DNA of 62,634 bases from Folioceros fuciformis. Taxonomy: Eukaryota. Positions within the stretch are counted from its first letter, which is position 1. Each line of letters opens with the position of its first letter. Both the position numbers and the translations under genes were made by a program. Positions 1,113 through 33,179 of this stretch are shown here, in pieces. The notes beneath the pieces were generated by a model. That model was not told the DNA's origin and searched no databases. It saw only the letters and a list, made by a program, of their open reading frames with translations. The stretch lies in the NCBI GenBank assembly GCA_049999805.1, contig JBNGIO010006249.1, positions 464,796-527,429 of the forward strand. Direction: 5' to 3'.

Positions 1113-2627
1113 TTACGAATCCCGACAGGCTGACGGTTGAGTGTCATAAGCAGCGTCGGCGGATGACGTGTCTATGTCATTCAGACCAAGCTCCTCGTTC
1201 TGCTCCCAAGTTCTCTCATACTCCTGAACAGTAAGCTGTGTGTCGTCCTCCAGACCTTCGACGTCGGAGGAGGGAGCGATGAAAGAATTAGCCAACGCAT
1301 CATCCAAAACCAGCGTCCACGGCGAGTCAGCATCTCTGAGCTTCTTCAAAGCCTCAAAAAACTTGTCCCATCGCTGCTTCTCTCCAGGTGCAGCACTGTC
1401 CCCTAACCTAAAGCTAGTCAAGCCCTGCAAGGTTTCTACTATCTTGCTCACAAGCCCTTCCACCGTAGTAACCATACCGCCGAGAGTGCCCGGCTCCAGG
1501 TCCAGGTCCAGTTCAGGAATCCGAACACTAGCCGTGTCCGACTTAATGACATCCCTACTCAAATCCTCTTTCGTCACAACGCGGACTGTGATCGTCTTCC
1601 CCTTCAAAGGAATGCTTCCACCCGGTTTAACCTCTGAATTCCGGAAACCACAGAGAACGCAACTGGTCGCCATAACGATCACCTCCTTGAAGTACGGAAT
1701 GTTGGTGACGTACATCCGAGTCTCACACGCCGCTGCACACGCTCCACATGAAGCCGGAAAGATCATCACCTCCTCCGGGGCAGAATACTTGAAGAGTGCC
1801 GCGGCCACATCCGCACTGTTCCCCTGCGCAATAGCTCGTTGCGCAGCGTAGGCGCCGACCGATCCGTGGGGCTCTCTGCTAGTTCCCGCCGGCACATACC
1901 CCCGCACATCGCCATCGGCAACAGGAGCAGTTCCACCTCCACTTCCATCGCTCTCCTGCCCCGCCGGCAACGCCACATACCCTAACGCAGTCTGCTGCTC
2001 CGGAGTCCGATCATAATACACTGTTTCCAACCTCGGATCCTGCGCAGGAGCATGCAGGCTTTCCACAAAGCTGTTCCCCGCCGGATCATCCACCACAAAG
2101 GTGAATCCACGGCGTCCAGTGCCGCAATCCCTCAGCTTAGCCAGAAACTCGTCAATAGCCGCTGCCACAACCGGATCAGCCTTCCTCCGCTCCGGCTGCA
2201 ATGCCTCCAGGTCCTCCGCGGCCCGCATCAGGACTCCCTCCACCGTCGACAGCGTGCCCCGCTGCGCCTCCTGCGGTATCTCCAACTCGATCTCCGGTAC
2301 CTTGATGGACGCGGAGTCAGACTTCACCACCTGCCTGTTGAGCGAGGCCGCGTCCCCCGGGGGCACGGTGAGCATGATCCGGCAGCTGCGCGGGGCCAGC
2401 TGCCCTGCGAATTGCACCTCATTGTTGAGCTCTCCGCAGTGCGGACACTCGAACGCCATGAGCAACAGCTCGCGGAAGTGCGGGACGCGACTGAACATGA
2501 TGCGCGTAACACCATTGCCCTTGCAGCGCATGCACAGGCTCTCGATCTCCTCCACCGCCTTACCATCCGCTCTATCCTCATCCCTCGCCACGGCCTCGGC
2601 AGCCGCTCCCACGTCCACCATCGCCAT
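1113..2627 (-). CDS. ZPR1: Zinc finger protein ZPR1, intronless
   Basis: Two C4 finger plus A/B domain modules (ESLCMRC..FECPHCG..NNEVQ; CGAC..SCVLCGFRNSEVK), LNRQVVKSD, TVEG, DDPAGNSF, YERTWEQNEELGLNDI. First ATG at 2627. Confidence 0.95.
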   Translation of the reverse strand: MAMVDVGAAAEAVARDEDRADGKAVEEIESLCMRCKGNGVTRIMFSRVPHFRELLLMAFECPHCGELNNEVQFAGQLAPRSCRIMLTVPPGDAASLNRQVVKSDSASIKVPEIELEIPQEAQRGTLSTVEGVLMRAAEDLEALQPERRKADPVVAAAIDEFLAKLRDCGTGRRGFTFVVDDPAGNSFVESLHAPAQDPRLETVYYDRTPEQQTALGYVALPAGQESDGSGGGTAPVADGDVRGYVPAGTSREPHGSVGAYAAQRAIAQGNSADVAAALFKYSAPEEVMIFPASCGACAAACETRMYVTNIPYFKEVIVMATSCVLCGFRNSEVKPGGSIPLKGKTITVRVVTKEDLSRDVIKSDTASVRIPELDLDLEPGTLGGMVTTVEGLVSKIVETLQGLTSFRLGDSAAPGEKQRWDKFFEALKKLRDADSPWTLVLDDALANSFIAPSSDVEGLEDDTQLTVQEYERTWEQNEELGLNDIDTSSADAAYDTQPSACRDS

Positions 2628-4426
2628 GCCTTTCCACAACCTAGCTAACTCACTCGCTCACTCACTCACTCACGCGAATGACCTAATTTCCAAGCACGTC
2701 TGAGTAGTGCTTCCAGCAGACCCAGCACACCATTGTGAAAGCAGCGCAGTGCTCCAACCGCCACGCCCTTGCAAGCCGCCGGCTTGATACAATTCGATCT
2801 TCAAGTTCCTACGGTGCAAACTGAGTGCATGCCTTCCCGCCTGCCGCACAACTGGCCACATCCTGTCACTGGAGCAGAGGAATGGGAAAATCAGATTGGT
2901 TGCCTGCCATGTGCACTTCATATCCTCGCGCCTGGGTGAAGAAGAATGTCTTTCCAGTCCACTAAGAACAGATTCCCGTCGTGGCTCCAGATATCACACA
3001 TCAAAATCAGAACAGTTGCACCTGGTGGTACAGATACTGTGACTGGTGACAGACTCGGCGATTGACGACTCACCACCCGATTGGTCCCGGTTGAGAATCG
3101 TGCGATGTGGTGTGATTCGCGAATCCTGATCTCCAGACACTGCTGCTGGTTAGATGGGCGCCTGGGAGGGGATGGTGTGAAGGAGAGGAAGGGATCTCTG
3201 GACGCTGGCCCACTCTGTGCATGACGTCCAGTACGGCTTTTCTTTTCAGGCAAGCTGCGCACCGTTGAGGTAGGCCCACTTAGCTTTTATTGATTTTTCT
3301 TGTTTTACTCTTCAGATACAAAATTGAGGCGCATACAATATTAAAAGGGTTTCAAACTCAAATTTAGATTAAGCATCAATTACAAAAGGAAGTGAAGCCA
3401 CAATTTGCTACATTTTTAATTTTTTTGCACAGTGTGGTTACAAATAAGCAACCTATATGCATGATCTAAGAATTTCCTTTGATGACACATGTCTTGAGAT
3501 CCACGCAGGCTTAACATGTCAGCTTGAGCAAAAATCAGCTCCGTAAAGTCTCCGAATCCAGAAAAAAAAAAAAAAACAGGGGGTAGAATAAATGATATTT
3601 ACGCAGTCCCGGTCACCAACCGGTTGGAGAGGACTTACACGAGTGTTGTCTTTACTCGTCGCGATGGCGCGAGTTTAGTGCATCTGCCAGCAGCATCAGC
3701 AGCGGCAGCGCAGCACGAGTTGTAGCAGGAGAAGAGCAGCAGCACAGTTCCCTCGCTGTCCCGGACGGTTCTGCTGGCAGCATTGGCAGGCCTAGACTGA
3801 CGGGCATCTTGAGGCACTGCATTGCCTGGGGCGAGGAATCGGGAAGAGAATCCTGCCTTGCTTGGAATTCTGCTGCAATTGCCTGCTCCAGGCTGATTTT
3901 CGGCTGCCCAATTGGAATGGAGGAGCCCCAGATGGACACTGCGGGTGTCTCAACTCTTGACTTGACCGGAGCCAGGGCCTGCGTCAGTGGCTACAACGGT
4001 GGCTGAGAACCGTGGTGTCGAGCTGGCCTGTGCGCTCTCCGTGAAAGGGGTGCTGCAAGGGGGGGGGAGTGAGGGTTGGATGGATTCCTGCTGTCATTCT
4101 CTGTCAGTTAGACTACGCGGATGCCAGCTGAGGGTGATCTTGGAGCTGGTGGAAGCCAGGGGGTTGGAGGGAAGTGCAATTTTTGCTGCGCTTCGGAGTG
4201 GGCTGCTCTGAGTTAGCCAAATTGTGTTTGGTTTTGTTGCGCCTTGGTTCTTGCGGGGTGATCGGGTGTGGGTGGTAAATGCGGTTTCGGGACTGGTCTG
4301 TGCCGGTGAGGAAGTGGGCTCAGGATTTTTTTCTCTGTGGCCGAGCTTTGCGATGCTTCATGTTACCGCATTTTGGGTCCCGGTTTGTGCGGCCTAGTCG
4401 CCTTTGTGGGGATCCTTTGGGAAGCG

Positions 4427-10900: not shown

Positions 10901-12242
10901 TGCAAATCCCAAGTAAGCACCCCTCACAAGCATCAATAATAGAGTAGGCAACCTTAACGAGCAGCACAGTGTTACTTACAGAGTGGACAGCTCCAATCCG
11001 CGCACAGGCTAGCATAGCCACTGGTAACTCAACCAGCATTGGCATGTAAATCACCACCGCGTCTCCCTTACCCACGCCAATCCCCCTCAGGTAGTTTGCA
11101 AGCTGCCACCACACCAGCAGCCAGCGTGTAAGCTTCAAGCTTTCACGCAACAGCCTGTACCGGAGCTAAGACATTCCTACTCGTTGCACCCCTCACAGAA
11201 GCAACGAGCCAACGGCGTGAAACCACCTTCCATAACACAAGGATTGGAAACACGTTGAAAATCGTCAGCCGTAACAGCCAGAAGTACCTGGCAAATCTGA
11301 TCAAGCAGCTGCTTGAAAGTAACCCTCTTATCCAACCCCACATCGTTGCCCTCCCATATGATTGCAACGTCCTCACCCTTCCCTGCCTCCACATGCCTAT
11401 CAACTGCGTTGTAACATATATTCGTTTCACCACCTTTGAACCACTGACATCAAAAACCGAAGAAGAGGATGTGAAAACAGTTTCCGCGATACAAGCACCA
11501 CAAAAATCCATCTCGCGCGTCCTGGCCAACAAACAGCAGTACTCACCCCTCACTCGAATCCCAAACTCACTCACCTCAATAGCAACGCGACCTTTATTCA
11601 CGTCTATGTTCGCCGTGTGAACCTTGCCGTCCACGCTCGGCCATTTCTTCTTCCAGTAGAAACTGGACGCAATCTCACTCCAAAACGCGTCGGGATCCGA
11701 GATCGATTTCTCATACATCGCATCGTACTGCAAAATTCCATCACACTAATCAGCTCACTGAGCTCACTTTCTCCCCCTCGGCAGCGAACAACAACACACG
11801 ACCGAGATCTCGCATCCTAGCACAAAATGCGCCAAAATCTCACAATTTTCCGAGACGGAACTAGCGCACGGTCCCGAAACTCCTGACTCGCATACTCCAG
11901 CACGTCCTCCTCCACATGCACGGTCTCCCCGGTCACAACAGCATCCGCCTGCGCAGCCTTCAGCTCGCACACACCAAACCCGTTTGCGTTTCCATTCCCG
12001 TTTCCGTGCCCGAACCCTCCCTCCATGCCGGCAGAGGAAAATGAAGAGGCGAGCCTACGGGATGCAGCGGCCGTCGCCACAGCCAGCTGCCGAGATATCC
12101 CGAGCGTGGCCCCTGCGGTGGGGGAGGCGAGAGCGGCTTGCGCTTGCGCAGCTGGAGGCAACAACACAAGCCCACGCCCTTGCGGAGTCACGGAGGAAGC
12201 TGTTCCCGCACTGACAGGTAGAGTTCCGTGCGCGGCGGCCAT
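7986..12242 (-). CDS. ACS: Acetyl-CoA synthetase (AMP-forming), probably plastid-targeted, many exons
   Basis: Exons encode [96 protein letters not shown] and [18 protein letters not shown]. Ala/Ser-rich N-terminus from ATG 12242. Confidence 0.95.
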
Positions 12243-12507
12243 GGCTATGTGTCTGCCTAAACTTGGTGCGTCAGGCCTCTTTCTCCATGCGAGAATCGAG
12301 ATCCGTCCGTCCTCATCAATGCAGATACCGTGCACCTCAGTGTAACAGAACTTTTCTTTTATTAGTCCCAACGAGCCGAAATGCTGTGAGACGTCTTGGA
12401 CGACCCCAAGTCGACTCGACTGTACAGGCGCCGGATCCCAACGGAGCAGGAGACGCGGTATGCGGGTCTCGGATTGTTGCTGGGAAGAGCTGCTGCTGGA
12501 GCCTGGC

Positions 12508-15304
12508 CTAGTACGGGTCCGGGGCCAGGGCCATCTGCAGCGCTTGCTTGGAACGTTCCAGGAGAGGGCCAGCGAAGACGTGGGCGCCGGCAGCGGTCGG
12601 GTGGTGCATGGCGTGCTGCACCCGTACGGCCATTTCAACCACCAGCTGTTTCCAGTGCTGGGCCTTGGCTTCGGCTCTTGCGACCTGGGAACGGGCGGAA
12701 GGATTGTCAGGTGGGATGCGGGATGCCCTGATTGCGGGCCGGGGTGTTGAGATTCTTACCTTTTGGTCCACCCCCTGGAACTTAGACTTGTCCATCCCTC
12801 CTGAGTGACACCGCCTGAGCCTGGGGTGCAGTGGCGTCGGGCTGTCTTCAGTCGGCAGGCGGAGTGCTGGGAGGTCCTCGGGTGAGGCAGCTTCTGCCTG
12901 GTCGGGTTCTGGCGGCTGCCTCTCTTGTTCTTGCTGCTCTTCATCTTCCGCGGACTGGTGGGGACACGGGACGTGCAAGAATGGCGGGAGAGATAGGGCT
13001 GACGGAGTGAGCGGAGTGAGGCCGGGTCTGATGATGAGGTTCTCAGTCATGGAAACCACGGTGTCGAATTTGGTAAAGTCCTGCAGGGCAAGCGAAGGTG
13101 GATTAGGTGTGGCAAGGCATGCTGCGACGGTGGTTGGACACGAGGAGGGTGAGGATGGAGGAGCTCACCACGCAACGACGGCCGCCGGGGAGTCGTGTCA
13201 CCATGGTCCTGCACTCAAAACGAAGGCTCATTGAGAATTGCATACAACACAGCGTACAGTGTGGAACGGAGAAGGGACGGTGTCACGTACTCGAACCGCG
13301 CCTCAAGGCAGATATCATCAGGACGGTACGAATGGCGTGCTGCACACAGGATAGACAAGGACGTGGAAGGGTGTGAGACTTACTGATTCATGCTGGCAAG
13401 GACGGATTTTGTCTGGCATGTCGTCGGACGTACCCTGAAGTTTACAAGATGTTGAGGAGTCGACGCCTTCGAGAAGGACAAGGATCTCCAAATCACACTC
13501 CTCCATGGCCTGTTCGGATCAAAAGGACAACACTCCATGATCAGATGAGGATGAGCGATTGTTGTTACGGTTCGTTGTTCGGCTGAGCAAGTCACCTGAA
13601 TAGAGAGTCCGTAGAGAGGACTAGTGGCCGTGATTGGGTGCTTCACTAGACATGGGAGTCCTAGAAAAACCTGGCTGCCTCCAATGACCTGCAAACCAGG
13701 GAACGTCAGGGCAGTACAAAGGTTCCTGCGCGGGAGGTGCGTATATTATTCTTGCTCGCCAGGTGCTCTGGACTGAAGGAAGCACTGACCGGGAGGTTGA
13801 TGAAATTGAATACACTCTCATCTTCCTGGGTAAGGGTGTTGTTAAGGGCCACCAACATCCTCACACTAGCCTGCGGAACAGCTGTCAGGACCTGAGACTT
13901 GGCGTGACCACGCCAAGCCTTTTGTGGTCTAATCACCTCAGACTACCTCAATGACTTGATGCTTCCGGATATTCGCCATTCTCAGGGACAACACAGGGAC
14001 ACCATCTTCCTGAAAGAAAAGGAGTAAGGGACATACAACCCCTACCAAGAAAGAATGCCTAGATAATCCTGAAATTGTTCTACTTCTCATGCTCACCTCG
14101 TGAAGGACCATGTATCGGCTGAAGACCAGAGTTTGTGCTCGACGAGTTGGGCGAGAAAACCTGTGTGAAGTTACGAATTAGAGACAAGCAGTACCAGAAG
14201 CAAAGGGGAGACCACGCGTGCCAGGCAAAACCACAGACCTAGCATAAAATACACCGAGCAGCGAATAAGCCATCACCAAGCTCGCAATCGACTGGATCAG
14301 AACAAGACTGTTGGTCACCATACACTTTGGATCCGGTGTTAATTCGCCGCCGTAACCTGGTGCATTCGAAATGACCATGTCAGTAGAGCTGAGAAACAGT
14401 CCTAAGGAAGAGTGCTCAAATTTCAAATGCCACACTCTAAAAGCTCACCGATTGTCATGGAAGTCTGCACGCTGTCCACAACACAAGGCAGGCGCAAAAT
14501 GTTAACCAGGGAACTCATTGGAGGGGTCTGCTTGCAGTACTAGTTTTAACGGGCTGCCCCTCTCTCACGATCTATGGTGAAGTAGTGGTCACCTGAACCA
14601 TACAGCATGGCTGAACGTTTGGACTCCCGGGATACAGAAGTTGTTGTAAGCCTGCTGAAGCAAGTGAAGCAGACACTGGAATTGGTAGCGTGTAGGACAT
14701 CAGGTTGACGGATGTGGCATACATGTTGCGCAGATAACGTCACTGTACCTCATAGTAGAAGGGGATGGCAAACAGCACGAACAGCAGGAAGTAGGAGAGG
14801 AACAGCAGCCAGAAAAACCTTATGTTGGGCATCTGCGGACACGAATGATACACCCATCCGTGTCATTGCCACGTATTCAACCACTGGTGTGAAAACATTG
14901 GCCATGACTTACGTTCACTAGCGTGTGAAAGAGATCCCCCCAGTAGAGGAATGTCTTGGGTAATCCTCGGGTCTCGACATTCAGTCCACCCCTGACAGCA
15001 AGCAGCAAAATTCATGTCATCAAGCATCCAAAAGCGAAACGACATAGGCATGCAGGGTCTATTGTTTACAAATTCTTGTCAAAGCAGTGTTCAGCTACCT
15101 GATAGATCAGAACAAAAGCATTCTACCAAATCATTCGTGACTTACACAGGCCCAACTGCGAAGAGGATTCACTTGAACGGTGAGAGCAGAACTTCAATGA
15201 CAAAAAACATCATGCACGCACCTCTTGTCCACCAGTGGCAGCTTCCTCATGCGCCTGGACTGCAAGGGGGCAGTGAATGCCGAATGCTCAGCCTGTGTTG
15301 CCAT
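12508..15304 (-). CDS. Inward-rectifier potassium channel (Kir/IRK family), 15 exons, ~469 aa
   Basis: Manually spliced exons, all GT-AG and phase-consistent: 15304-15222, 14991-14913, 14832-14749, 14651-14593, 14471-14449, 14356-14239, 14160-14097, 14009-13947, 13870-13790, 13688-13596, 13509-13434, 13339-13291, 13208-13169, 13080-12760, 12684-12508. Product: LVDKRGGLNV..WGDLFHTLVN-M1-FCIPGVQTFSHAVWFSVQTSMTIGYG..PKC-M2-FSRPTRRAQTLVFS..DGVPVLSLRMANIRKHQVIE..HPITATSPLY..LEILVLLEG..QARHSY..DFTKF. The start codon is the least certain part. Confidence 0.92.
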
Positions 15305-16526
15305 GAGGGCTGCCAGGAAAGCTTGAACAGCACCTAGGGGTCTCATCACTCAATTCCTCCCGATACCAGAACGACCAGCTTCAGCAACGCCACCAGCCGA
15401 GAGCAAGCATGCTGGGGCATTCTCAGACTCCTGGAACTCCAACACGCTCTGTCCTCCATCCCCCCAGACAACACAGCCAGGGGGACAACAAAAGCCGGAG
15501 CATACCCTCGACGCAGCTCAAAATTCCTCGGCAGCCCAACAATGTGCAACTCCCGATGCGGGTGTGCAAGGCTCGTGCACTAGTGAGCTCAGAGACGAGG
15601 ACTTGCGGAGCATCCGCAGCAGCCAGGAGCGAAGAAGGTGGGTGCGGTTGCTCCCGAATCGGCGCCGCAGCTGCAGACCAATCTCCAGCAGCAGCAGATG
15701 AACTATTGTCGGCGCGGAAAACGAAGCTGATCAAATGCCAAGGTGGACGGAGGCATGAGCTCTGAGGCTTGTCCGACTCTGGGCAGGCGGGAACGCCACC
15801 AAAGTATCTGAAGTTGCCAATTGGCGAAGCCTGCCAAACATAAAATAGCACGATTCCGACATCTCTCAGAGCAAGAGACGTTCGAGAGAACGTCACAGGG
15901 TACAAATTTGAAGATGCCGTATGTAGATTGCGTGGCCAGAACTCGAAGCACAGATTCTATTTAGAGCCGAGGAAAAGATCCCAGCACCTCAGCTGTGAGG
16001 CACTAGGTGTCTCCGTCTGTCCTCAGCCCATGTTCCTTTGTTTATGCAGCAGCCTGGATTGGCAGTGACAAGTCCAAGTAAGCTGTACAACCTTACGACA
16101 AACCCACGGCCGGATAACCGAAAGGCTCTTGCAACCCATCCCTTCAAGCTAGACTCCGAAATGACTAAGATCTTCGAGAGACTACCCTCCAAACAAGATC
16201 TGGCTGGAAGCCGAAGCACACATGAAAATCATCCTCAGATTTCCTGTCACCTCCGCACTCCTTGCACCTTCCCTTGCAATCATTTTTAGTGCATATATGC
16301 ATAAATAATACATTTATATATGTTACTATAAGCAAGTAGACGAGAGGCCAATGTCTCTCATCCTTGCCCTAGAATTGGAATATGAGAGGGCTAGTCTTCT
16401 GGCTATGGGCAGGGAACGGGGGCTTCGAATGATTTGAGCTTTTTTTATGTCTTGCTTGTTATTTCTTCTTTTCTAGTCTACCATGGAAATTGGCCACAAT
16501 CTAATTAGTAGTGTACCCTCACATGG

Positions 16527-19135: not shown

Positions 19136-22100
19136 ATGGCGGTGCGGGAGGACATGCTGAGGCCAATCCACTTTCATGGGAATCTGCCCACCGCAGTTTC
19201 TGGGTTCCTGCCGACCGCTGGAAGGAGTTACGCAGTGGGTATGGCCGGGGAGGCTGGGAGGACCGTACAGTTCCGGGTGAAAGTGGAATTGGAGTGCTCC
19301 ACTGGTGAGTTGAGTTCGAGTTGCGTCTCGAAGGATGGCCTTGTGATGGAGCATGTTGGGTGTCATAATGGTGTTTCAGAGCCATCTAATGTTTGGTTGG
19401 GGAGGCAGGAGGATCTCATGGACAGATCGAGAGGGAACGGGTGCAGCTGCTGTGGGAGGACTTCTTCTCGGATCCTTCTTTGTGGTGGGACAACAGGTTG
19501 GAGAAGGTATGTTTGTTGCAAGGCATTGACATTTCCTCTTCTGTGAAGTGGTAGAAGGTGGACAGGAAGAGGTTTAAGTGCTCAGTATGTGCAGTCTGCT
19601 CTTGTTTGCAGAGAACTTCTCTGGCTCCGGACTTTGCACATAAGAGAAAGGGAGATGTTCTGTGGGCTCGCAGCAGGTTGAATCCTCCTTGGACGGAGTC
19701 ACGGCTGGCGCTGTATGAACTACCTGCAGACGTGGTGTCGAATTCTGGGACTGATGTTCCCGCGCCCATATGGTGATTGTTGCTGTGTAAAAGATTGCAT
19801 TCGTAACGTTGCTTGCGAGCCGCTGATGTTGATGCAAGGAAAAGGTAGCCAGTGCGGATAGTTTTGGACCCCTGTGTTAACTGAATGGAGCCTCCGCAGG
19901 GCACAGGGCAGAACCTGCGAAGCTCAAATATTATGTGAGCAGGGGAGGCTGGAAGAGGCCGTGGATGCTCTGCGTCTCATGGGTCAGAAGGGCTGCCTGG
20001 CGTCGGTGCAGACCTATTTCGAGTTGTTGCAGGCGTGTCGAAAACAGAAGGCCCTGCATGAGGCTAAGAGAGTGCATGCTCACATGGTGGAGAATGGACT
20101 TGAGAGCAACACATTTCTGGGTGAAATTTCAGTGAATGTGTTTGTTAAGTGCGGGGATCTGCCAAAAGCAGTCCTGTTGTTTGACAGACTACGTCGACGG
20201 ACGGCCTTATCTTGGGCTGCACTCATTTCAGGATATACAAACGCTGGACAAGGTCAAAAGGCGGTCATGACCTACAAAGAGATGCGAAAGCAAGGCGTGG
20301 AACCAAACAAGTACACGTTCGGTGTTGTTCTCCAAGCTTGTAGCCTTCCTGTGGACCTGAAAGTGGGGAGGCAGGTTCATGCCGAGCTCGTGAGACGCAA
20401 TTGGGAGTCTGATTCTTTCCTGGGTAAGTGTCTGGTGGGCATGTATGCCAAGTGTGGGAGCATGGTGGGTGCACAGCATGTCTTTGAGACTCTATCAAAG
20501 CGTGATTTGGTGTCATGGAATGATATGATTAGGGGCTATGTGAAGGATGGGAAGGGTGAGACAGCGATTGACCTCTACTTCCAAATGCAAGAAGAAGGCA
20601 CGCACCCAGATAAATGGACCTTTGTGAACGTGCTAAAAGCTTGTATTTCTATATCAGCCAATGAAGAGGAGATGCTGATTGATGGTCAGGCTCTCAAAAT
20701 GGGTTCTTTACAACAGGGGAAGGCTTTGCATGCTGAAGTGGCCGTAAGAAATTTAGAAACTGATGTCTTTGTGACCAACTGTCTGGTTAACATGTATGCC
20801 AAGTGTGGGAGTCTTCAGAATGCCCGACAAGTATTTGACGGACTGTCGCATGGGAACGTGGTGTTGTGGAATACAATGATAGCAGGTTACTCTCAGCAAG
20901 AAAAGGGTGAGAAGGCTTTGCAACTTTATGCCCAAATGCAACGGTCTGGTTTGAGACCTGATCAGCGTACATTTGTAAGCGTCTTGAAAGCATGTGCTGT
21001 CCAGGGAGCCCTTGAAGAAGCCACTTTGATTGATGGACAGCTGTGGAAGCTGAAGTCCCTGCAACGCAGTAAAGTTGTTCATGCTGACGTTGTCAAAGCA
21101 GGCTGTGAAATGGATGTCTTCGTGGAGAACACCATCGTAGACATGTATGCAAAATGCAGGAGCATGTCGGATGCCAGGTCCGCATTTAATGCACTGTCTC
21201 ACCGCAATGTTGTATCATGGAATGCAATGATGCAAGGGTACTTGGACGAGGCGGATAGTGAGAGTGCCATGCAACTATACAGCCAAATGCAAGAAGAGGG
21301 GATCAGACCTGACCACTGGACATTTGTGTGTGTGCTGAGGGCATGCAGTGACTTGGCTGTGGAGGAAAAGGATACTGTTGTCACTGGAGTACCAGTCAAA
21401 GAGAAGTCCTTGCGACAGGCGAGGAAGATTCATGCTCGACTAGTTAGTTCGGGTCTTGACTCAGATCTATATGTTGGCAATACGTTAATGGATTTGTACG
21501 CTAAGTGTCGGAGCCCTGTGGATGCTCGGACTGTTTTTGACACATTGTCCCAGAGGAACGTGGTGTCTTGGAACGTTATCATTGCATGCTATGCTCAGGA
21601 AGGAAATGGACATGAAGCACTTCAGCTTTATGCTGACATGCAAGGTTGTGGATTCAGTCCCAATGACCGCACATTTGTGAGTGTCCTTATGGCCTGCGGG
21701 ATCCTGGCAACAAAGGAGGCAGAGACGGTTGTTGATGGCCAGCAAGTTAAAGTTCAATCTCTACAGAAAGGCATCATGTTGCATGCCGAAGTCGTTAGAA
21801 GAAGCTATATGTCGGATATCTATGTGGGGAACGCTATGGTGGACATGTATGCAAAGTGTGGATCCATCGTAGATGCACGGCAGGTGTTCGACTCTTTGCC
21901 CCAACGAACTGTGGTGTCCTGGAATGCTATGATTGCAGGTTATGCTCAACAGGAAGAGGGTGAGAACGCTTTGCAGGTGTATGAGCAGATGCGGGCTGTT
22001 GGTGAGATGCCAGATGACCGAACTTTTGTCAGTTTGCTAAAGGCCGTGAGCAGCCTGGCATGTAAGGAGGTGGAAACTATCACAGATGGTGCGGCAGTCA

Positions 22101-23257
22101 AAGTGAAGTCACTAGAGAAGGGTGAGGCTCTGCACGCTGAGGCTATTAGGATGGGTTTTGAGTCTGACTTGTACGTCAAGAACACATTAGTTCGGATGTA
22201 TGCGAACTGTGGGAGCCTTGCCAAAGCGCAACAAGTGTTTCACTCTTTATCCCAACCAGATGCGGTGTCGTGGAATGCCCTCATTGCTGGATACAGTCAG
22301 CAGGGTCGGGCTAACCGTGCTCTGCAATTGTATGGTGATATGCCACATGGTGATGTGCAACCCACCGAAGCAACGTTCCTGAGTGTACTCAGAGCGTGCA
22401 GCATTGTAGGGTCCCTGAGGTGGTGCAAACAAATCCAATCGGACATTGTACAGTGCGAAACAGAGTTAAGTATCCGTGTGTCAAACACGCTGATCCATGC
22501 TTTTGGTCGATGTGGGAGCATGAAAGATGCACAAGATGTGTTTAACACCATGCCGCATCAGCACACTGTGGCGTCCTGGAACGTACTGATTGCAGGATAT
22601 GCCAAACAAGGCGATTCTGCAACAAGCCTGCAGTGCTTTGAGAATATGCAATTGTCAGGTTTGAAGCCAGATTCTGTCACCTTCGTTTCGCTTCTTGCAG
22701 CATGCAGTCATGGAGGAATGACAGACAAGGGCCTGGAATTCTTCAATTCCATGAGCGAGGTGTTTGGTATCACAGCAACAAGCGCTCACTATGTCAGCAT
22801 TGTAGATCTCCTCAGCCGTGCAGGGCTTTTTAGCAAGGCAGAGCAGTTGCTCTTGGCCATGCCAGTCCAGCCTGATCTGGCAGTCTGGTTGTCGCTCCTC
22901 AGTGGTTGCAGGAAGTACGTCAACATAGAGCTTGGACGACGTGCCTTTGAGCATGCCGTCAGGTTGGATCCCAAGCAAGGTGGCCCCTACATGCTCATGG
23001 CTAACCTCTACGCCCATGCCCAAATCTGGCAGCAGGCCAAAGAGATAGAAGGATTGAGAGTCCGTGCGGATGCTCCGAAGAAGCACGGGGAGAGCTGGAT
23101 GGAGGTCGGTGACGATGTGCATCAGTTTGCAGTGGGAGACACCACCCACCCACAAACTCACCATATCTACCAAAAACTCGATGAACTGAGTGCGTACGTG
23201 CAGAATGGGCATCTCGCTCCCTCCCAATGCGAAAGGGAAAGTCTGGCAACGTTGTGA
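19136..23257 (+). CDS. PLS-class PPR protein (E/E+, no DYW) with LL-type motifs and an N-terminal OSB-like PDF motif; 4 exons, ~1261 aa
   Basis: Exons 19136-19304, 19409-19506, 19612-19772 and 19900-23257 join in frame through GT-AG introns. Exon 4 is a long P-L-S array (MYAKCG/VVSWN repeats) ending in E1/E2 and a PG-box-like KKHGESWMEV..HQFAVGDTTHP. Exons 2-3 encode LWEDFFSDPSLWWDNRLEKRTSLAPDFAHKRKGDVLW..NPPW. Confidence 0.88.
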
Positions 23258-28566: not shown

Positions 28567-29245
28567 CATGAACGCTCCCGCCGTAATGCACCTCATTTCT
28601 CTAGAACCCAAAAAGGTTCAAGTTGAGAACCTTTTGTGGTCCAGATAGTACTCTTGTGGCCCCACCGTGTGGACAGGTCCGGCTCACCACGCCAGAGTTT
28701 TGATTACTCTAAAATAGACAAAAAATAATGATCCCATACAAGGAGGACCGTACTGCAAGGGGTTGATCAATATGAATTGGATAAAGTCATAAAGATATGT
28801 ATCATATTTCAGGGTTGAATATCTTGGAAAAGCTATGCGGCGAGGATGCCAAACACTCGGGACAAAGAAGATGGAGCCGGCCGGTTTGGAATCCCAGGGC
28901 TTGACAATAATATAAAGATAATTTAGATCATGCTAATTTTTAATGCGTTTAATCTATTGGGTATTTAATTATATAAATATAAGATTTCTATTAGCTTGAA
29001 TAAAGAGTACTTAGCTTACTCCTCCATCCACTATGATACTAGAGTAATCCTAATTTAGTCGGGATCATTTGCACGATGCATAAGGACGTTTCTATTCAAA
29101 GTATGTATTCAGTTTTAGAAAAACAAGATAAAAAACCCTCTCCTTCGTTCCTCCTGCCTCCCATCTCCAACCCTAAACTCCCCTCTCACCCTATTCCCTA
29201 CCCTAATCCTATAAATCCCCCTCTCCCGCTTCCTGTCACTAACCC

Positions 29246-29345
29246 NNNNNNNNNNNNNNNNNNNNNNNNNNNNNNNNNNNNNNNNNNNNNNNNNNNNNNN
29301 NNNNNNNNNNNNNNNNNNNNNNNNNNNNNNNNNNNNNNNNNNNNN
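29246..29345. other. Assembly gap (100 N)
   Basis: Run of exactly 100 N flanked by C/T-rich low-complexity sequence. Confidence 1.
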
Positions 29346-29660
29346 CCTCTCCCCCCTTCTCGCACAGGGACAAAGTCCCATGGGCCGTGACCCCTTCTTC
29401 CAGTGAGACAAATTCCCAGTGTCTCCGCTTGCAAGTGAAGTAGTGTTTACATTGTGGTGGTGGCATGCTCCGTACGTCCCCCATAGACCAGATTACCCTG
29501 TTTTTGGGGTGGTCCGCCGACAATAGCCGTAGACAAAAACTTCTGTCTGCAGCTATTGTCCACGAACCGTTTACTGTTTTAGTAAGTTTTAATATTATGA
29601 CCATTTTACATACTGAGTCGGTATTCCCTTCATGGGAACACCGACCCAGCCTATTTTGCA

Positions 29661-29950
29661 GCGTGCCTTCCTTGTAGCCGCCTTCATCGCGGTTTTGCAG
29701 CCTGCCTCCCTTGTAGCTCATCTTCATCGCGGTTTTGCAGCCCGCCTCCCTCGTAGCCCGTCTTTATCGCGGTTTTGCAGCATGCCTTCATCGCAGTTTT
29801 TCAGCTCGCCTCCCTTATAGCTCACCTTCAACGCGGTTTTGTAGCCTGCCTCCCTTGTAGCTCGCCTTCATAGCAGTTTTGTAGCCTGCCTCCCTTGTAG
29901 CTCACCTTCATAGTAGTTTTCCAGTCTGCCTTTTTTGCAGCCTGCCTCCA
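29661..29950. repeat. ~40-bp minisatellite, ~7 copies
   Basis: Unit cctgcctcccttgtagctcaccttcatcgcggttttgcag with variants at 29661, 29701, 29741, 29805, 29845 and 29885, plus a short unit at 29781. Confidence 0.92.
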
Positions 29951-30255
29951 TTGTCGCCCTGCGAGATATATTTTGCTCACACAGTTGTTCGCAGGCCGTC
30001 CTTGCTCGCAAGTTGTCCTTTCCGTAGGCCGATTGCCTCGCTTGCAGCTTGGACAATTCTCAATTACAAGTTAGACAGCTCTCATTTGCAACTTGGGCTT
30101 GGACCTATTGCCATTCCTCCTTGTTTAGGTTCAATTTGTTTCATTGAAGAACAATAGACCTCCCGAACTTGTTGGACTCTTCTATTTCCTCTTCTCAATA
30201 TACTGCATTGTCTTCTCAACCCCCTCTCCTACTCGCAGCATGAGCTTCAGCACCT

Positions 30256-31062
30256 ATGGTTATCACCAAGCCAAAGGTCAACCTTGTAGCATGGACAGTC
30301 GACAACACTTTTGCCTTGATTGCAGCTTTTGAAGACATCTACATGGAGCACCTTCGGCAGAGGAATTTGGTAGCCCACCACCACTATGACGACATTGCCG
30401 TGCTAATTTATCCTCTTTGTGAAGGTTTTTAGCCTACTATAATTCAATGTAGGAACAAGATGGACAGTTTGAAGCGGCAATATAAAGTAGAGGCAAAGAA
30501 GCTCACAACCAAGGTCTATGCCTCGGAGTGGGTGTTTTGGGAGGCCATGGATGCATTCATGAATGATAATCCTAAGGGAGTTAGAATTTCAAACTCTCCT
30601 AACCCTGGGCTTGTTGATATGAAAACTTCAAATTGCTGCTTCAAGCAAGTTGCTGTTTTTCTCAGCACTGCGAAAGACCCTTTTGTTTCTACGGTGGACT
30701 CTCCACTTGTGGCTATTGTTTCACCAAGCTTGCTAGCCGCTTCACCACTAGAAGAAGAATGTGGTGAATCTCCTACAATAAAGGTAAATAAGTTGAAGAG
30801 TATAACAACTAAGAAAGCCAAGACTAGAAAGCATAGGTTTGATGAATATGGGCCTGATAGAATAGCTTATAGTATTTCTAGGTTTGCTGAGGTCTTTGCG
30901 AAGATTGAGACAGCAAAGTTAGAGAGTATGCAAGCTGCGGAGAAGAGTAGACTAGAACAAAGCTTAAAAATCTCGAAGCTATAACAATACATGCAACTAG
31001 AGGTTGTAAAGCTGTTGGTACAGTCTTCTAAAAGAGCAAAGAGCAGCTCCCCTTCAAACTAG
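30256..31062 (+). pseudogene. Harbinger-associated Myb/SANT-like (trihelix) DNA-binding protein, interrupted by stops
   Basis: WTVDNTFALIAAF..QCRNKMDSLKRQYK..SEWVFWEAMD and a C-terminal coiled coil. Single frame with premature stops at ~30430 and 30982. Confidence 0.8.
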
Positions 31063-31143
31063 CTGCAAGTGTTGTTTGTGTTACAAGAAATGCTCAGAAA
31101 CTGTGCATATCAAATTCTGACTCTAGTCTTCATAAAAAATTAC

Positions 31144-31430
31144 AAGTAAGCACTTCAGAGAAATTTCTGTTTCAAAAGCTTCAGAATGATGCATAGCACA
31201 TTTCATTTGGGCAAGTGTGCTGTTCGAAACAAAGCCCGAAAGTAACGGGATTGTTGTTTGTATTGTGTGAAAGCATAAAAACTAGACACCACCATATCTC
31301 ACTCCTGTCGTATTGAAAAAATGCAAGTAAGCACTTCAAAGAAAGCTGGTTTCAAGAGCTTCACAATGATGCATAGCACATTTCATGTAGACAAGTGCGC
31401 TATTCAAAACGAAACCTGAAAGCAATGGGA
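31144..31430. repeat. ~105-bp direct repeat, 2 copies ~181 bp apart
   Basis: caagtaagcacttca..gcttca.aatgatgcatagcacatttcat..caagtg.gct.ttc.aaac at 31144 and 31325. Confidence 0.85.
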
Positions 31431-31492
31431 AATAATCTTGAAAGTAACAAAGCTAAACAACATGCACATTACATTTGTATGCTACAAAGGAC

Positions 31493-32892
31493 TTATGCAC
31501 GCCCGTTCGACCGAGCATTTCTCCAATGATTGACTAAGGTAGCATGTTGTACTTCTGCTTGACTCTTCAAAGCCTCTTCTTGAGCATTTGTTAGTGAGAT
31601 GTTCATTGGATGTGGGAGTTTATGCTCATCCACATATCGACTATTAAAATCCATTTCCCAAACAATTATGCAAAAGTTATGAAGCACAAAACATGCTATT
31701 ACTATACTCGCAGCATATTCAATATGGATATTGAGGTTTTTCAAAATTCTCCACCGGCCCTTCAATGTTGAGAATGCATGTTCTATGACTACACGACCAA
31801 ATGAAAACCAAGAGTTGAAGGACCGCTGCTCCTCATTTGCTGGATTTTTAAATCCTTTCATGAGAAAGGGCCGTAACGGAGATGCTGCGTCTCTAATAAT
31901 GTATGGAGGTATTGGAACACCTTCTACCATGACAATGGGCTCTTTAAATATGCTATTCTCGATAAGGCGTTGCCTTATGAATATGCTGCGAGTATAGTAA
32001 TAGCCTGTTTTGTGCTTCATAACTTTTGCATTAATAATTCATACCTAATGCGATAAACTACTATTCCGCAAAATTCCAGCATCATTAGATCCTCCGAGAC
32101 TATTGACATATATATCTAAAAATAAACGTTGATGGTCACATATAGCCTGTAGAACGATACAGTGCATGTTGTAACATTTGCAATGATATGCTGTTGGCAT
32201 GTACCTTGGTGGCGGCATAGCAGTGAACTTGATCAAAGAGCCATCCATAGCACCTACAATGTCAAGTAGTAGAGTCCACTCCTCAAACTTAGCAGAAATG
32301 GCTTGCTGACGTTGTCTTGATGGAATGCTGATGAAAGACGAATATAATTTTTTGGGATCACTTAAGATGGCCACCATAGCCTTAGTGTATTGCACCATTG
32401 TTGCCACACCTACACCGTATTTCACGGCAACTTCATACGGGGGCAATCCTCTTCCAAGCTGACACAATACCATTGCAACAGCTTTCTCAAGTTTAATTGC
32501 TGCTCTCGGAGAACTACGAACAAGAAAGAGGCAAAGTTCCTCAACCAAAACCATGAAAGTTGTATAAGTCACACGATATTGCCGACTTCACTTCTCATCC
32601 CGCATTGAAGGTGAAAGCATTTGCCATGCTTCCATGTACTACCTCTCCCAAAGACCTTGCCGACTTGGAGCTTTCCACCAAACCCTCGAAACATTGGGTC
32701 ATTAGGTCTTGTAGATCTTGTAGCCTCAATCGTCAAACTACCTGTTGCAGCCATGACCAACAATATGAAAGAACTCATTACATTACTCGATAAAATATCA
32801 TCACTATACATGCTAGGACATTGTCTTAGAAAATTATCTTGAGAATATATCAAAAGAAAGGCTAAGAACAAAAAAACCCTAGTTTCATCCAT
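31493..32892 (-). pseudogene. Harbinger/HARBI1-like DDE transposase, disrupted
   Basis: GAMDGSLI, LQAICDH, GGSNDAGI, RVVIEHAFSTLKGRWRIL and IACFVLHNFC across three broken ORFs. Confidence 0.9.
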
Positions 32893-33179
32893 AGCCAAAA
32901 ACTCAAGAAACCAAGGAGCGACAACTCGAGAGAGAGGAGCATATAAGAATGCCAACATTTGTGAACCAAAGTTCTAGTAGCCCAAAATGTCAGGCAGCTC
33001 GGCATGATCTAGGCTTGACCCTACATATGGATTCACCTTTTGGTGGGTCCAATAGCACCGAGTTAAAATCGCCGATACGGTCCGTCCGTCGCCCGCTATA
33101 CACGGGCTTGTGAGTGGACCGAAGTGCTTTTCAATGTAAATAGTACTTGAGACATATTCCCGTGTCCCTGTCTCACAAT

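What the first reader, a model, noticed from the sequence alone, without database searches (positions are those of the whole stretch)
12508..15304. Eukaryote-type inward-rectifier (Kir) K+ channel in a land-plant genome
Seen: 15 small exons splice into a complete Kir with slide helix (DLFHTLVN), M1, pore helix, TIGYG, M2, tether (RPTRRAQTLVFS) and the full cytoplasmic beta-domain. Established: angiosperm K+ channels are Shaker-like and TPK types (plant 'Kir-like' KCO3 is TPK-derived), whereas true Kir/IRK channels are known from animals, prokaryotes (KirBac) and some algae/protists. The two extracellular Cys (FCIP, PKC), the basic tether and 14 introns point to an old eukaryotic gene rather than recent KirBac transfer. 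Inference: an ancestral channel retained in this lineage with unknown physiological role.
Basis: partly seen in the sequence, partly recalled or inferred. Interest (0 to 1): 0.82.

Follow-up and report, generated by a model that had tools for sequence, protein, structure and literature searches.

The report
Bryophyte-type Kir potassium channel gene
This is a real, spliced and transcribed gene for an animal-like inward-rectifier potassium channel in a non-seed land plant, but the same gene family is already on record in liverworts, mosses and their algal relatives, so it is a new member rather than a new kind.

Summary
A 15-exon gene on the minus strand (ATG 15304, stop 12508) has 14 GT-AG introns and a 1410-nt CDS encoding 469 aa. 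Spliced contigs of one public run show all 14 introns removed; the DNA run shows none.

It is a true Kir/IRK subunit:
- 214 and 244 bits against local profiles of animal-like and bacterial-like Kir.
- 69% identical to P0001, which passes Pfam IRK and IRK_C.
- P0001's best solved relative is Kir6.2, E 3.4e-42.

It is eukaryote-type, with the long M2-to-cytoplasmic-domain tether, the long post-filter loop and both extracellular Cys. 136 of 146 long-tether relatives have both Cys; 0 of 112 short-tether ones do.

It is not new as a family. Orthologues are annotated in Marchantia, Riccia, Calypogeia, Physcomitrium, Ceratodon, Klebsormidium, Chara and others. No vascular plant is among the 120 listed hits. 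Moss Kir-like proteins (MCamb1/2) were published in 2004 as calmodulin-binding and stress-induced.

The host is probably a hornwort. Two things are worth testing: an Ala at the M2 rectification site, and a streptophyte-only C-terminal helix pair that may bind calmodulin.

The parts
15305..15800 (-). 5' leader, at least 496 nt. It holds 6 upstream ATGs plus an in-frame ATG at 15346 that would add 14 residues.
   Evidence: An X3 contig covers 15221-15800 without a gap and runs beyond the laid stretch (record 7). uATG list. Choice of 15304 as start rests on the alignment with P0001.
15222..15304 (-). Exon 1: start codon and variable N-terminus (residues 1-27, plus 2 nt of codon 28).
   Evidence: joint 14990->15221 in X3
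15099..15221 (-). Part of intron 1 that an alternative donor (last exon base 15099) retains. It carries an in-frame stop at 15196-15194.
   Evidence: Joint 14990->15098 (skips 107) and X3 record 6 covering 15098-15250. Frame read.
14913..14991 (-). Exon 2: N-terminal strand and slide helix.
   Evidence: helices 43-56 in the model of orthologue P0001
14749..14832 (-). Exon 3: outer transmembrane helix M1.
   Evidence: helix 60-89 in the P0001 model
14593..14651 (-). Exon 4: extracellular turret with Cys 88 and the start of the pore helix.
   Evidence: this Cys aligns with a Cys of Kir6.2 in the P0001 alignment
14449..14471 (-). Exon 5 (23 nt): end of the pore helix and first part of the selectivity filter (T-I and the first base of the G codon).
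   Evidence: joints on both sides in X3
14239..14356 (-). Exon 6: rest of the TIGYG filter, post-filter loop with Cys 121, and inner helix M2 with Ala 139 at the rectification-controller column.
   Evidence: the exon alone gives Pfam IRK 16.7 bits, E 0.007, below the 22.7-bit cut-off
14097..14160 (-). Exon 7: basic tether linking M2 to the cytoplasmic domain (four Arg), of eukaryotic length, and the first beta strand.
13947..14009 (-). Exon 8: cytoplasmic beta strands. Its last codon is Glu 191, which falls in the column of a Glu in the fish Kir2.2-like row.
13790..13870 (-). Exon 9: cytoplasmic domain.
13596..13688 (-). Exon 10: cytoplasmic domain.
   Evidence: the exon alone gives Pfam IRK_C 17.3 bits, E 0.0039, below the 22.5-bit cut-off
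13434..13509 (-). Exon 11: cytoplasmic domain with Glu 263 (second cytoplasmic-pore acidic column) and the G-loop region.
13291..13339 (-). Exon 12: cytoplasmic domain.
13169..13208 (-). Exon 13: cytoplasmic domain.
12760..13080 (-). Exon 14: end of the IRK_C domain, then a poorly conserved acidic, Pro-rich linker. The matching part of P0001 is modelled as disordered.
   Evidence: pLDDT below 50 for residues 330-417 of P0001; no Pfam hit
12685..12759 (-). Intron 14: 75 nt, a multiple of 3 and stop-free, so it could not be called from sequence alone. It is removed in the transcript contig.
   Evidence: Joint 12682->12758 with 255 nt on the shorter side in X3; open frame across it
12508..12684 (-). 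Exon 15: the last 58 residues, a conserved streptophyte-specific C-terminal helix pair, plus the TAG stop at 12510-12508.
   Evidence: Conserved from Klebsormidium to embryophytes and absent in the Mesostigma-type, chlorophyte, fish and bacterial rows. Helices 422-454 and 462-478 in the P0001 model, pLDDT about 72-85. No Pfam hit.
12343..12507 (-). 3' UTR, at least 165 nt. It abuts the 5' end of the next transcript contig (acetyl-CoA-synthetase-like gene), which reaches 12360.
   Evidence: X3 records 3 and 2

Best explanation
The feature is an intact, transcribed nuclear gene for one subunit of a eukaryote-type inward-rectifier (Kir/IRK) K+ channel. It is the orthologue, in a non-seed land plant (most probably a hornwort), of a Kir lineage inherited vertically through the green lineage. 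That lineage is retained in streptophyte algae, liverworts and mosses and is apparently lost in vascular plants.

Shown here:
- the gene structure and its splicing
- family membership
- the eukaryote-type indels and Cys pair
- the distribution among named records

Inferred from what is established for Kir channels:
- Four subunits form a K+-selective pore. Each contributes a slide helix, M1, a pore helix, the TIGYG filter and M2.
- Below the pore hangs a beta-rich cytoplasmic vestibule.
- Gating occurs at the M2 bundle crossing and the G-loop. It is coupled to anionic lipid through the Arg-rich tether.
- Rectification arises from block by cytoplasmic Mg2+ and polyamines.

Prediction on rectification. 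The M2 controller column is Ala here. It is Asp in the fish Kir2.2-like, chlorophyte and Mesostigma-type rows and Asn in the Klebsormidium row. Both cytoplasmic-pore acidic columns keep Glu. I therefore predict weak to intermediate rectification.

The C-terminal helix pair. This 58-residue module is streptophyte-specific. It is most likely a regulatory module and possibly the calmodulin-binding site reported for the moss proteins MCamb1/2. If so, channel activity would be tied to Ca2+ signals during cold, osmotic and ABA stress.
For: Gene and splicing:
- 15 exons, 14 GT-AG introns, 469-aa ORF.
- All 14 joints appear in X3 contigs and none in DNA run X1.

Family membership:
- The spliced protein scores 214.3 bits against a profile of 40 animal-like Kir and 244.0 bits against a profile of 111 short-tether Kir, over residues 13-318. 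0 of 120 control proteins hit.
- It is 68.8% identical over 481 columns to P0001.
- P0001 passes Pfam IRK_C (98 bits, cut-off 22.5) and IRK (64 bits, cut-off 22.7).
- P0001 matches 60 distinct PDB sequences at E<=0.001. Of these, 59 are Kir or KirBac. The best is Kir6.2 at 3.4e-42 over query residues 24-319.
- The AF2 model of P0001 has the expected helices and strands. The top 50 listed Foldseek matches are all Kir or KirBac chains, E about 1e-25 to 1e-23.

Eukaryote type:
- Of 265 rows, 7 are partial.
- 146 have a 15-residue tether window, and 136 of those have both Cys.
- 112 have a 12-residue tether window, and 0 of those have both Cys.
- The window protein has tether 15, post-filter loop 11 and both Cys. 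The same pattern shows in the 22-row alignment.

Vertical descent:
- The green clade is supported at 97-99 SH-aLRT and the embryophyte clade at 96-97.
- The order runs Mesostigma-type, then Klebsormidium/Chara/zygnematophytes, then embryophytes.

Distribution:
- Named orthologues are in 4 liverworts, 2 mosses, 6 streptophyte-alga records and 3 chlorophytes.
- No vascular plant is among the 120 listed hits.
- The same database returns many named vascular plants for the neighbouring SCD1 gene.

Literature:
- Passage read in PMC1952061.
- Table row in PMC4532166 and passage in PMC8655846 on MCamb1/2.
Against: - No electrophysiology exists for any streptophyte Kir that my searches found. Conduction, selectivity, rectification and lipid dependence are all inferred.
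- The window's own spliced protein could not be handed to Pfam, the PDB search or the fold tools. Those tests ran on orthologue P0001. Single window exons stay below the Pfam cut-offs: 16.7 and 17.3 bits, and 6 of the 8 window pieces scanned gave no hit.
- Run X3 is labelled RNA only as a guess by the tool. I take its intron-less contigs as the evidence that it is RNA.
- The trees are unrooted. They show three separate groups (green, animal-like, short-tether). They cannot say that green Kir is sister to animal Kir.
- The careful tree search did not finish, so only SH-aLRT values from quick searches are available.
- The local HMM score is somewhat higher against the short-tether profile than against the animal-like one.
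- The C-terminal segment is not more amphipathic than shuffles of itself. Its maximum 18-residue hydrophobic moment is 0.34, and 328 of 500 shuffles reach it. So nothing computed here supports a classical amphipathic calmodulin site.
- I could not read Takezawa and Minami 2004. I therefore could not confirm that MCamb1/2 are the P. patens protein P0017, or where calmodulin binds.
- The alternative donor in intron 1 gives a transcript with a premature stop.
Confidence: 0.85

Rival explanations
1. The gene was acquired recently from a bacterium (a KirBac-type gene) and later gained introns.
For: Short-tether, bacterial-like proteins are among the next-best hits after the green sequences, at E 1e-41 to 1e-29. 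The local short-tether profile scores slightly higher than the animal-like one, 244 against 214 bits.
Against: The window protein has the 3-residue-longer tether, the longer post-filter loop and both extracellular Cys. Both Cys together occur in 0 of 112 short-tether rows. The green sequences form one clade apart from the short-tether clade, and that clade follows the species tree from algae to bryophytes. There are 14 spliced introns.
Confidence: 0.02
2. The Kir gene belongs to a contaminant or symbiont (an alga, protist or animal) and not to the plant.
For: Kir channels are typical of animals and algae.
Against: The gene lies in one 62.6-kb stretch between plant genes. These include an acetyl-CoA-synthetase-like gene, a PLS-class PPR gene with E and E+ motifs, and SCD1, whose named hits are all land plants at 53-57% identity. 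A single 79-kb DNA contig of run X1 covers the whole laid stretch. In the tree the protein sits inside the embryophyte clade.
Confidence: 0.02
3. The protein has the Kir fold but does not work as a K+-selective inward rectifier. It could be a non-selective or constitutively closed channel, a regulatory subunit, or an endomembrane channel with another role.
For: Ala at the M2 rectification column and a long extra C-terminus set it apart from studied Kir channels. The moss relatives were described only as 'transporter-like'. No functional data were found.
Against: The TIGYG filter, pore helix, Cys pair, both cytoplasmic acidic columns and the basic tether are all conserved across streptophytes. 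This argues for purifying selection on a conducting K+ pore.
Confidence: 0.1
4. The window comes from a vascular plant (for example a lycophyte), so this would be a first Kir of a tracheophyte rather than one more bryophyte orthologue.
For: SCD1 is equally distant (53-57%) from all named land-plant groups, Selaginella included. In the Kir tree the pair window + P0001 is sister to everything else in the embryophyte clade, and the unnamed P0003 lies between it and liverworts + mosses. That placement would also fit a tracheophyte.
Against: Liverworts, mosses, lycophytes, ferns, gymnosperms and angiosperms all have named SCD1 hits, and none is closer than the others. This points to the one major lineage without a named hit, the hornworts. 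High gene density and many PPR genes are reported for hornwort genomes (passages read in PMC8075897), and the window shows both. About 50% G+C also fits hornworts, but that comparison is recalled and not tested.
Confidence: 0.2

Closest known systems
Streptophyte Kir orthologues in public records: Marchantia polymorpha MPTK1_2g08920, Marchantia paleacea, Riccia fluitans, Calypogeia fissa, Physcomitrium patens, Ceratodon purpureus, Klebsormidium nitens 'Inward rectifier K+ channel', Chara braunii 'ATP-activated inward rectifier K channel'
   Same: Same domain pair (PF01007 + PF17655). Same filter, Cys pair, tether and cytoplasmic acidic columns, and the same C-terminal helix pair. They share one clade with the window protein, at 52-56% full-length identity to bryophytes and 74% over the 280-residue core to the zygnematophyte-type record.
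   Different: The window protein and unnamed P0001 (69% identical) form their own branch, sister to the other embryophyte rows. The middle linker (exon 14) is not conserved.
Physcomitrella MCamb1 / MCamb2 (Takezawa and Minami 2004, BBRC 317:428; not held, seen only through citing papers)
   Same: Citing papers describe them as membrane transporter-like proteins similar to mammalian inward rectifier K+ channels, calmodulin-binding, and induced by cold, osmotic stress and ABA. P. patens has a Kir orthologue in this clade (P0017), so these are very likely the same family.
   Different: Identity of MCamb1/2 with P0017 was not checked, because the sequences and the paper were not available. Calmodulin binding and stress induction are untested for the window gene.
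Animal Kir channels (Kir6.2, Kir2.x, Kir3.2)
   Same: Full-length match of the orthologue from slide helix to the end of the cytoplasmic domain (Kir6.2 E 3.4e-42, Kir2.1 2.3e-36). Both extracellular Cys align. Tether length is the same, and Glu sits at both cytoplasmic-pore columns as in the fish Kir2.2-like row.
   Different: About 30-35% identity only. Ala replaces Asp or Asn at the M2 rectification column. There is no IRK_N domain. There is an extra disordered linker of about 90 residues plus a C-terminal helix pair. It forms a separate clade.
Prokaryotic KirBac channels (KirBac3.1, KirBac1.1)
   Same: Same overall fold and domain pair (KirBac3.1 E 1.2e-36, KirBac1.1 1.1e-22; Foldseek E about 1e-24).
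   Different: The bacterial-type rows lack three residues in the tether and two to three after the filter. They lack the Cys pair and the second cytoplasmic acidic residue.
Arabidopsis KCO3, the plant 'Kir-like' channel
   Same: Both have a one-pore, two-helix membrane topology.
   Different: KCO3 is a recently truncated TPK channel (passages read in PMC3410407, and PMC8619664). It is unrelated to the IRK/IRK_C family to which the window gene belongs.

Membership tests
Kir / IRK channel family (Pfam PF01007 + PF17655) | Significant match to the IRK transmembrane profile | tested here: met
   Orthologue P0001 scores 64 bits against a 22.7-bit cut-off. The window's spliced protein matches local profiles of 40 animal-like and 111 short-tether Kir over residues 13-318 (214 and 244 bits), with 0 of 120 controls hitting. 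Window exon 6 alone scores 16.7 bits, below the cut-off. The whole spliced protein could not be sent to Pfam.
Kir / IRK channel family (Pfam PF01007 + PF17655) | IRK_C cytoplasmic beta-rich domain directly after M2 | tested here: met
   P0001 scores 98 bits against a 22.5-bit cut-off. Window exon 10 alone scores 17.3 bits. The local profile matches run to residue 317-318. Strands 163-317 appear in the P0001 model. The top 50 listed Foldseek matches are all Kir or KirBac chains.
Kir / IRK channel family (Pfam PF01007 + PF17655) | K+ selectivity filter T-x-G-Y/F-G between two transmembrane helices, preceded by a slide helix | tested here: met
   TIGYG lies at residues 108-112 of the spliced protein. 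Slide, M1, pore and M2 helices appear in the model of P0001. Alignment.
Kir / IRK channel family (Pfam PF01007 + PF17655) | Inwardly rectifying, K+-selective current | not testable with these tools
   Needs electrophysiology. Sequence shows only Ala at the M2 column and Glu at both cytoplasmic columns.
Eukaryote-type Kir (as opposed to KirBac) | Tether between M2 and the cytoplasmic domain three residues longer than in bacterial forms. That this marks eukaryotic, PIP2-activated Kir is recalled from the literature. | tested here: met
   The tether window is 15 residues in the window protein. 146 rows have 15 and 112 rows have 12, of 265 rows with 7 partial. In the 22-row alignment, 4 of 4 named bacterial rows have the gap and 0 of 17 green rows plus the fish row do.
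Eukaryote-type Kir (as opposed to KirBac) | Conserved pair of extracellular Cys flanking the pore loop | tested here: met
   Cys 88 and Cys 121 are present. Both Cys occur in 136 of 146 long-tether rows and 0 of 112 short-tether rows. In P0001 both align to Cys of Kir6.2. Disulfide formation itself is not testable here.
KirBac (prokaryotic Kir) | Short tether, short post-filter loop, no Cys pair, about 300 residues | tested here: not met
   Tether 15, loop 11, both Cys, 469 residues.
TPK/KCO3 'Kir-like' plant channels | Descent from tandem-pore TPK channels; no IRK_C domain | tested here: not met
   IRK and IRK_C are the best Pfam families for the orthologue. Ion_trans_2 reaches only 19.7 bits, below its 22.5-bit cut-off.
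Moss MCamb calmodulin-binding transporter-like proteins | Ca2+-dependent calmodulin binding; induction by ABA, cold and osmotic stress | not testable with these tools
   Known only from citing papers. Orthology to the P. patens Kir P0017 is inferred from the tree. The hydrophobic-moment test of exon 15 was not significant.

The most novel reading that the evidence does not exclude
Streptophyte Kir channels form a distinct Kir subfamily whose gating is set by Ca2+/calmodulin through the conserved C-terminal helix pair. That regulatory mode is not known to me for any animal or bacterial Kir (recalled, not searched). They would be weak rectifiers, because the M2 acidic residue was replaced stepwise: Asp in the chlorophyte and Mesostigma-type rows, Asn in the Klebsormidium row, Ala from Chara to bryophytes. 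On this reading the channel is a stress-switched K+ pathway of non-vascular plants that was discarded when vascular plants arose, and the hornwort copy completes its presence in all three bryophyte lineages.
Probability: 0.3. Interest if true: 0.6.

Novelty: new member of a known kind. Interest (0 to 1): 0.35.

Why it matters
Standard accounts of plant K+ channels list Shaker-type, TPK and, in early lineages, BK-like channels.
- The 2012 inventory of Physcomitrella and Selaginella K+ transporters holds no word starting with 'Kir' or 'IRK' in its main text. In the passages shown it names Shaker, TPK and BK-like channels (PMC3410407, find mode; 12 of 31 places shown).
- The 2021 Marchantia SLO preprint likewise holds no such word.
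- Yet a complete animal-like Kir is conserved from Klebsormidium to liverworts, mosses and this probable hornwort, and it is missing from the vascular plants among the named hits.

That makes it a clean example of an 'animal' channel lost at the origin of vascular plants. It is also a tractable target. Marchantia and Physcomitrium each have a copy that can be knocked out. The sequence gives two sharp predictions to test: weak rectification set by Ala 139, and regulation through the C-terminal helix pair.

For this window alone the gain is modest. It adds one more orthologue, with a fully transcript-supported 15-exon model.

Tried and rejected
- **Whole-genome search.** No genome is held for this window.
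- **Anchor script.** I then worked from coordinates only.
- **Exon search length.** The 39-aa exon query was too short. It was repeated with one more codon.
- **RNA runs.** No listed holder is on record as RNA. X3 is RNA only by the tool's guess.
- **Pfam on single exons.** 6 of 8 window pieces gave no family and 2 gave sub-threshold hits.
- **Careful tree.** It did not finish in two 300-s calls on one CPU, so only quick trees are reported.
- **Green Kir as sister to animal Kir.** I first read this way. I dropped it because searches show the same unrooted three-group arrangement.
- **Amphipathic-helix test of exon 15.** Not significant: 328 of 500 shuffles reach the observed moment.
  - No paper found names or records a current from a liverwort, moss, hornwort or streptophyte-alga Kir.
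  - The gene names Mp2g08920, MpKIR, MpIRK, PpKir and PpIRK gave no relevant paper.
  - The only lead was the 2007 citation of Takezawa and Minami 2004.
  - The Marchantia and Chara genome papers are not held.
Transporter tables there may already list these genes.
- **Earlier findings of this scan.** Nothing returned.
- **Rfam and tRNA scans of the window.** Nothing found.
Full report
**1. The observation**

The region holds a minus-strand gene. Three-frame translation shows a chain of short open segments with recognisable channel motifs.

I searched with the 40-residue M2 exon, asking for longer proteins. This found four full-length relatives, all with precomputed PF01007 and PF17655:
- P0001, unnamed
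- P0002, Calypogeia fissa
- P0003, unnamed
- P0004, a EukProt record with a Spirogloea-style gene id

tblastn of these against the window gave one HSP per exon. Refining each junction at GT/AG sites against P0001 gave introns 1-13. Intron 14 I placed by reading the sequence.

The model has 15 exons: 15304-15222, 14991-14913, 14832-14749, 14651-14593, 14471-14449, 14356-14239, 14160-14097, 14009-13947, 13870-13790, 13688-13596, 13509-13434, 13339-13291, 13208-13169, 13080-12760 and 12684-12508. It has 14 GT..AG introns of 75-230 nt and a 1410-nt CDS encoding 469 aa.

**2. Transcription and splicing**

One search for sequencing runs found three runs that hold the stretch or part of it:
- DNA run X1, all sampled words; possibly the source of the assembly
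- X2, 0.91 of the words; same sample as X1
- X3, from another study and labelled 'RNA?', 0.49 of the words

I laid X3 and X1 on 12000-15800.
- X3 contigs show 15 joints. Fourteen match the 14 model introns, within the stated cut offsets.
- X1 shows none of the 15 and covers the stretch unspliced in one contig.
- Intron 14 is 75 nt, in frame and stop-free. Only this evidence shows that it is removed.
- The fifteenth joint (14990->15098) is an alternative donor. It keeps 123 nt of intron 1, which carry an in-frame stop at 15196-15194.
- X3 contigs extend the transcript to at least 15800 (5') and to 12343 (3').
- The leader holds six upstream ATGs and an in-frame ATG at 15346.

The RNA nature of X3 is the tool's guess. 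The intron-less contigs are my reason to accept it.

**3. What the protein is**

The joined protein could not be handed to the outside tools, so I tested it in two ways.

*Inside the script box.* Profiles built only from non-green relatives match it over residues 13-318. None of 120 SCD1-type control proteins hit.

| Profile | Rows | Bits | E (Z=100000) |
|---|---|---|---|
| animal-like | 40 | 214.3 | 1.6e-62 |
| short-tether, bacterial-like | 111 | 244.0 | 9.4e-72 |

*Through orthologue P0001.* It is 68.8% identical over 481 columns.
- Pfam IRK_C 98 bits and IRK 64 bits, both far above the cut-offs.
- 60 PDB sequences at E<=0.001, of which 59 are Kir or KirBac. Best is Kir6.2 at 3.4e-42 over residues 24-319. 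KirBac3.1 is 1.2e-36, Kir2.1 is 2.3e-36 and KirBac1.1 is 1.1e-22.
- An AF2 model (mean pLDDT 76.9) shows the slide helix, M1, pore helix and M2. It then shows a beta-rich domain to residue about 317, a disordered stretch at 330-417 and two C-terminal helices.
- The top 50 listed Foldseek matches are all Kir or KirBac chains, at E about 1e-25 to 1e-23. TM-scores are only 0.42-0.57 by target length and rmsd is 9-18 Å. I attribute this to the relative placement of the two domains in a monomer model.

Single window exons alone stay under the Pfam cut-offs (16.7 and 17.3 bits). Six of the eight window pieces scanned gave nothing.

**4. Eukaryote type or KirBac type**

In a 22-row alignment, all four named bacterial rows lack three residues right after the filter and three residues in the tether between M2 and the cytoplasmic domain. 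None of the 17 green rows, nor the fish Kir2.2-like row, lacks them.

I then aligned the window protein and 264 relatives to a profile. Seven rows are partial.

| Tether window | Rows | Both Cys | First Cys only |
|---|---|---|---|
| 15 residues | 146 | 136 | not tallied |
| 12 residues | 112 | 0 | 7 |

The window protein has tether 15, loop 11 and both Cys (88 and 121). In P0001 both Cys align with Cys of Kir6.2. That the longer tether and the Cys pair mark eukaryotic Kir is recalled knowledge. The split itself is measured here.

**5. Trees**

Two quick maximum-likelihood trees were built, with 53 and 71 rows. They agree.
- There are three well-separated groups: short-tether, animal-like and green, each at 99-100 SH-aLRT.
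- The trees are unrooted, so they do not show which two groups are sisters. I withdrew my first reading on this point.
- Inside the green group the order is chlorophyte rows, then the Mesostigma-type row, then Klebsormidium, Chara and zygnematophyte rows, then an embryophyte clade (96-97).
- In the embryophyte clade the window protein pairs with P0001 (99). That pair is sister to P0003 plus liverworts plus mosses.
- This is the pattern of vertical descent.
- The careful search did not finish.

**6. Distribution and host**

The full-length search with P0001 gave 323 proteins at E<=1e-3 among 7998 scored candidates, and 120 are listed. Named green hits are:
- four liverworts
- two mosses
- Klebsormidium, Chara and Closterium
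- three EukProt records with streptophyte-alga ids
- three chlorophytes

No vascular plant is among the 120 listed. As a control, the same database searched with the neighbouring SCD1 gene lists many named seed plants, Selaginella and Adiantum.

The exhaustive representative search counts 3364 clusters at E<=1e-3 and 145 at E<=1e-30. The superfamily is large. The close green group is small.

Evidence on the host:
- The window carries a 1131-aa PLS-class PPR ORF with E and E+ motifs, a land-plant hallmark by established knowledge.
- Its SCD1 is 79% identical to one unnamed protein. It is 53-57% identical to every named land-plant group alike: Ginkgo-type id, Cryptomeria, Amborella, Calypogeia, Selaginella, Marchantia, Sphagnum, Adiantum and Ceratodon.
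- Gene density is high. High gene density and many PPR genes are reported for hornwort genomes (passages read in PMC8075897).
- Taken with the tree position, I rate a hornwort at about 0.7. A lycophyte-like vascular plant is the main alternative.

**7. How it probably works**

The following is established for the Kir family and inferred here. Four subunits form the pore, and K+ is selected by the TIGYG filter. Opening requires anionic lipid bound at the basic tether, which has four Arg here. Inward rectification comes from block by Mg2+ and polyamines at acidic residues.

Measured here:
- At the column that is Asp in the fish Kir2.2-like row, the window protein and most streptophyte rows have Ala. 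Klebsormidium has Asn. The Mesostigma-type row and three chlorophyte rows have Asp.
- Among the 146 long-tether rows, this column is D 46, Q 41, A 26, N 14 and E 10.
- Both cytoplasmic-pore acidic columns are Glu (191 and 263), as in the fish row. Chlorophytes have Asp at the second, and bacterial rows have non-acidic residues there.

I therefore predict weak to intermediate rectification. The equation of these columns with Kir2.1 D172, E224 and E299 is recalled.

**8. The extra C-terminus**

After the cytoplasmic domain comes a non-conserved acidic, Pro-rich linker. It is followed by a 58-residue segment, which is exactly exon 15.
- It is conserved from Klebsormidium to embryophytes.
- It is absent from the Mesostigma-type, chlorophyte, fish and bacterial rows.
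- It is modelled as two helices in P0001.
- It has no Pfam family.

Literature gives a lead:
- Rensing et al. [quoted passage not shown] ' (passage and reference read).
- Two reviews list MCamb1/2 as calmodulin-binding membrane transporter-like proteins induced by cold, osmotic stress and ABA.

I could not read the 2004 paper. The link between its calmodulin site and exon 15 is my inference. My hydrophobic-moment test does not support a classical amphipathic site, since 328 of 500 shuffles reach the observed value.

**9. Novelty**

The family in land plants is on record in databases and, for moss, in print since 2004. What my searches did not find is any electrophysiology or any naming of these genes as Kir in K+ channel surveys.
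- The 2012 Physcomitrella/Selaginella inventory holds no word starting with 'Kir' or 'IRK'.
- The Marchantia SLO preprint holds none.
- The TPK review uses 'Kir-like' only for KCO3.
- The ten searches are listed under Tried and rejected.
- The Marchantia and Chara genome papers and all supplements were out of reach, so transporter tables there may already list these genes.

**Verdict.** This is a correct and well-read observation of a real gene, a new (probably hornwort) member of a known but neglected family. The interest lies mainly in the family-level questions it makes testable.

Noticed in passing
window 15099-15221 (minus strand): An alternative 5' splice site in intron 1 of the Kir gene retains 123 nt that carry an in-frame stop. 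The result would be a non-productive isoform or one that starts downstream. It is seen as a separate contig joint in run X3.
   Followed up: partly
window 15305-15800 (minus strand): The 5' leader is at least 496 nt long. It holds six upstream ATGs and an in-frame ATG at 15346 that would add 14 residues. This suggests translational control or an uncertain start codon.
   Followed up: partly
window 46031-49711 (+), 36286-38250 (+), 39013-40398 (+), 1113-2657 (-): Several large conserved genes are uninterrupted ORFs or nearly so: SCD1-like DENN+WD40 (1227 aa), Met-tRNA synthetase, a DEAD-box helicase and ZPR1. The Kir gene next to them has 14 introns. I recall SCD1 as intron-rich in flowering plants. 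The contrast is unexplained.
   Followed up: no
window 19862-23257 (+): A 1131-aa intron-less PLS-class pentatricopeptide-repeat ORF ends in E and E+ motifs with no DYW domain. This is the type linked to organelle RNA editing in land plants.
   Followed up: partly
window 30433-32587: A low-G+C island (about 0.405 G+C from 30001 to 34000, against about 0.50 elsewhere) holds a DDE_Tnp_4 (PIF/Harbinger-type) transposase ORF split over two frames, and a neighbouring ORF without a Pfam hit. It is probably a decaying transposon.
   Followed up: partly
window about 29240-29340: The window's 100 N appear as a run of X (34 shown) in the ORF 29239-29763. This is an assembly gap.
   Followed up: no
window 12343-12360: The 3' end of the Kir transcript contig (12343) and the 5' end of the next minus-strand transcript contig (an acetyl-CoA-synthetase-like gene, reaching 12360) overlap by about 18 nt. 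The two genes have essentially no intergenic spacer, or there is read-through.
   Followed up: no
alignment, Chara braunii row (P0020): Chara is the only green row that has lost both extracellular Cys (Ser and Glu/Ser in their place). It keeps the rest of the pore. Its record is named 'ATP-activated inward rectifier K channel'.
   Followed up: no
/, proteins P0241 (862 aa) and P0243 (1012 aa): Closterium-like relatives of the streptophyte Kir are much longer than the rest. P0021 carries an extra PF01063 domain in the precomputed list. These are possible fusions or gene-model mergers.
   Followed up: no
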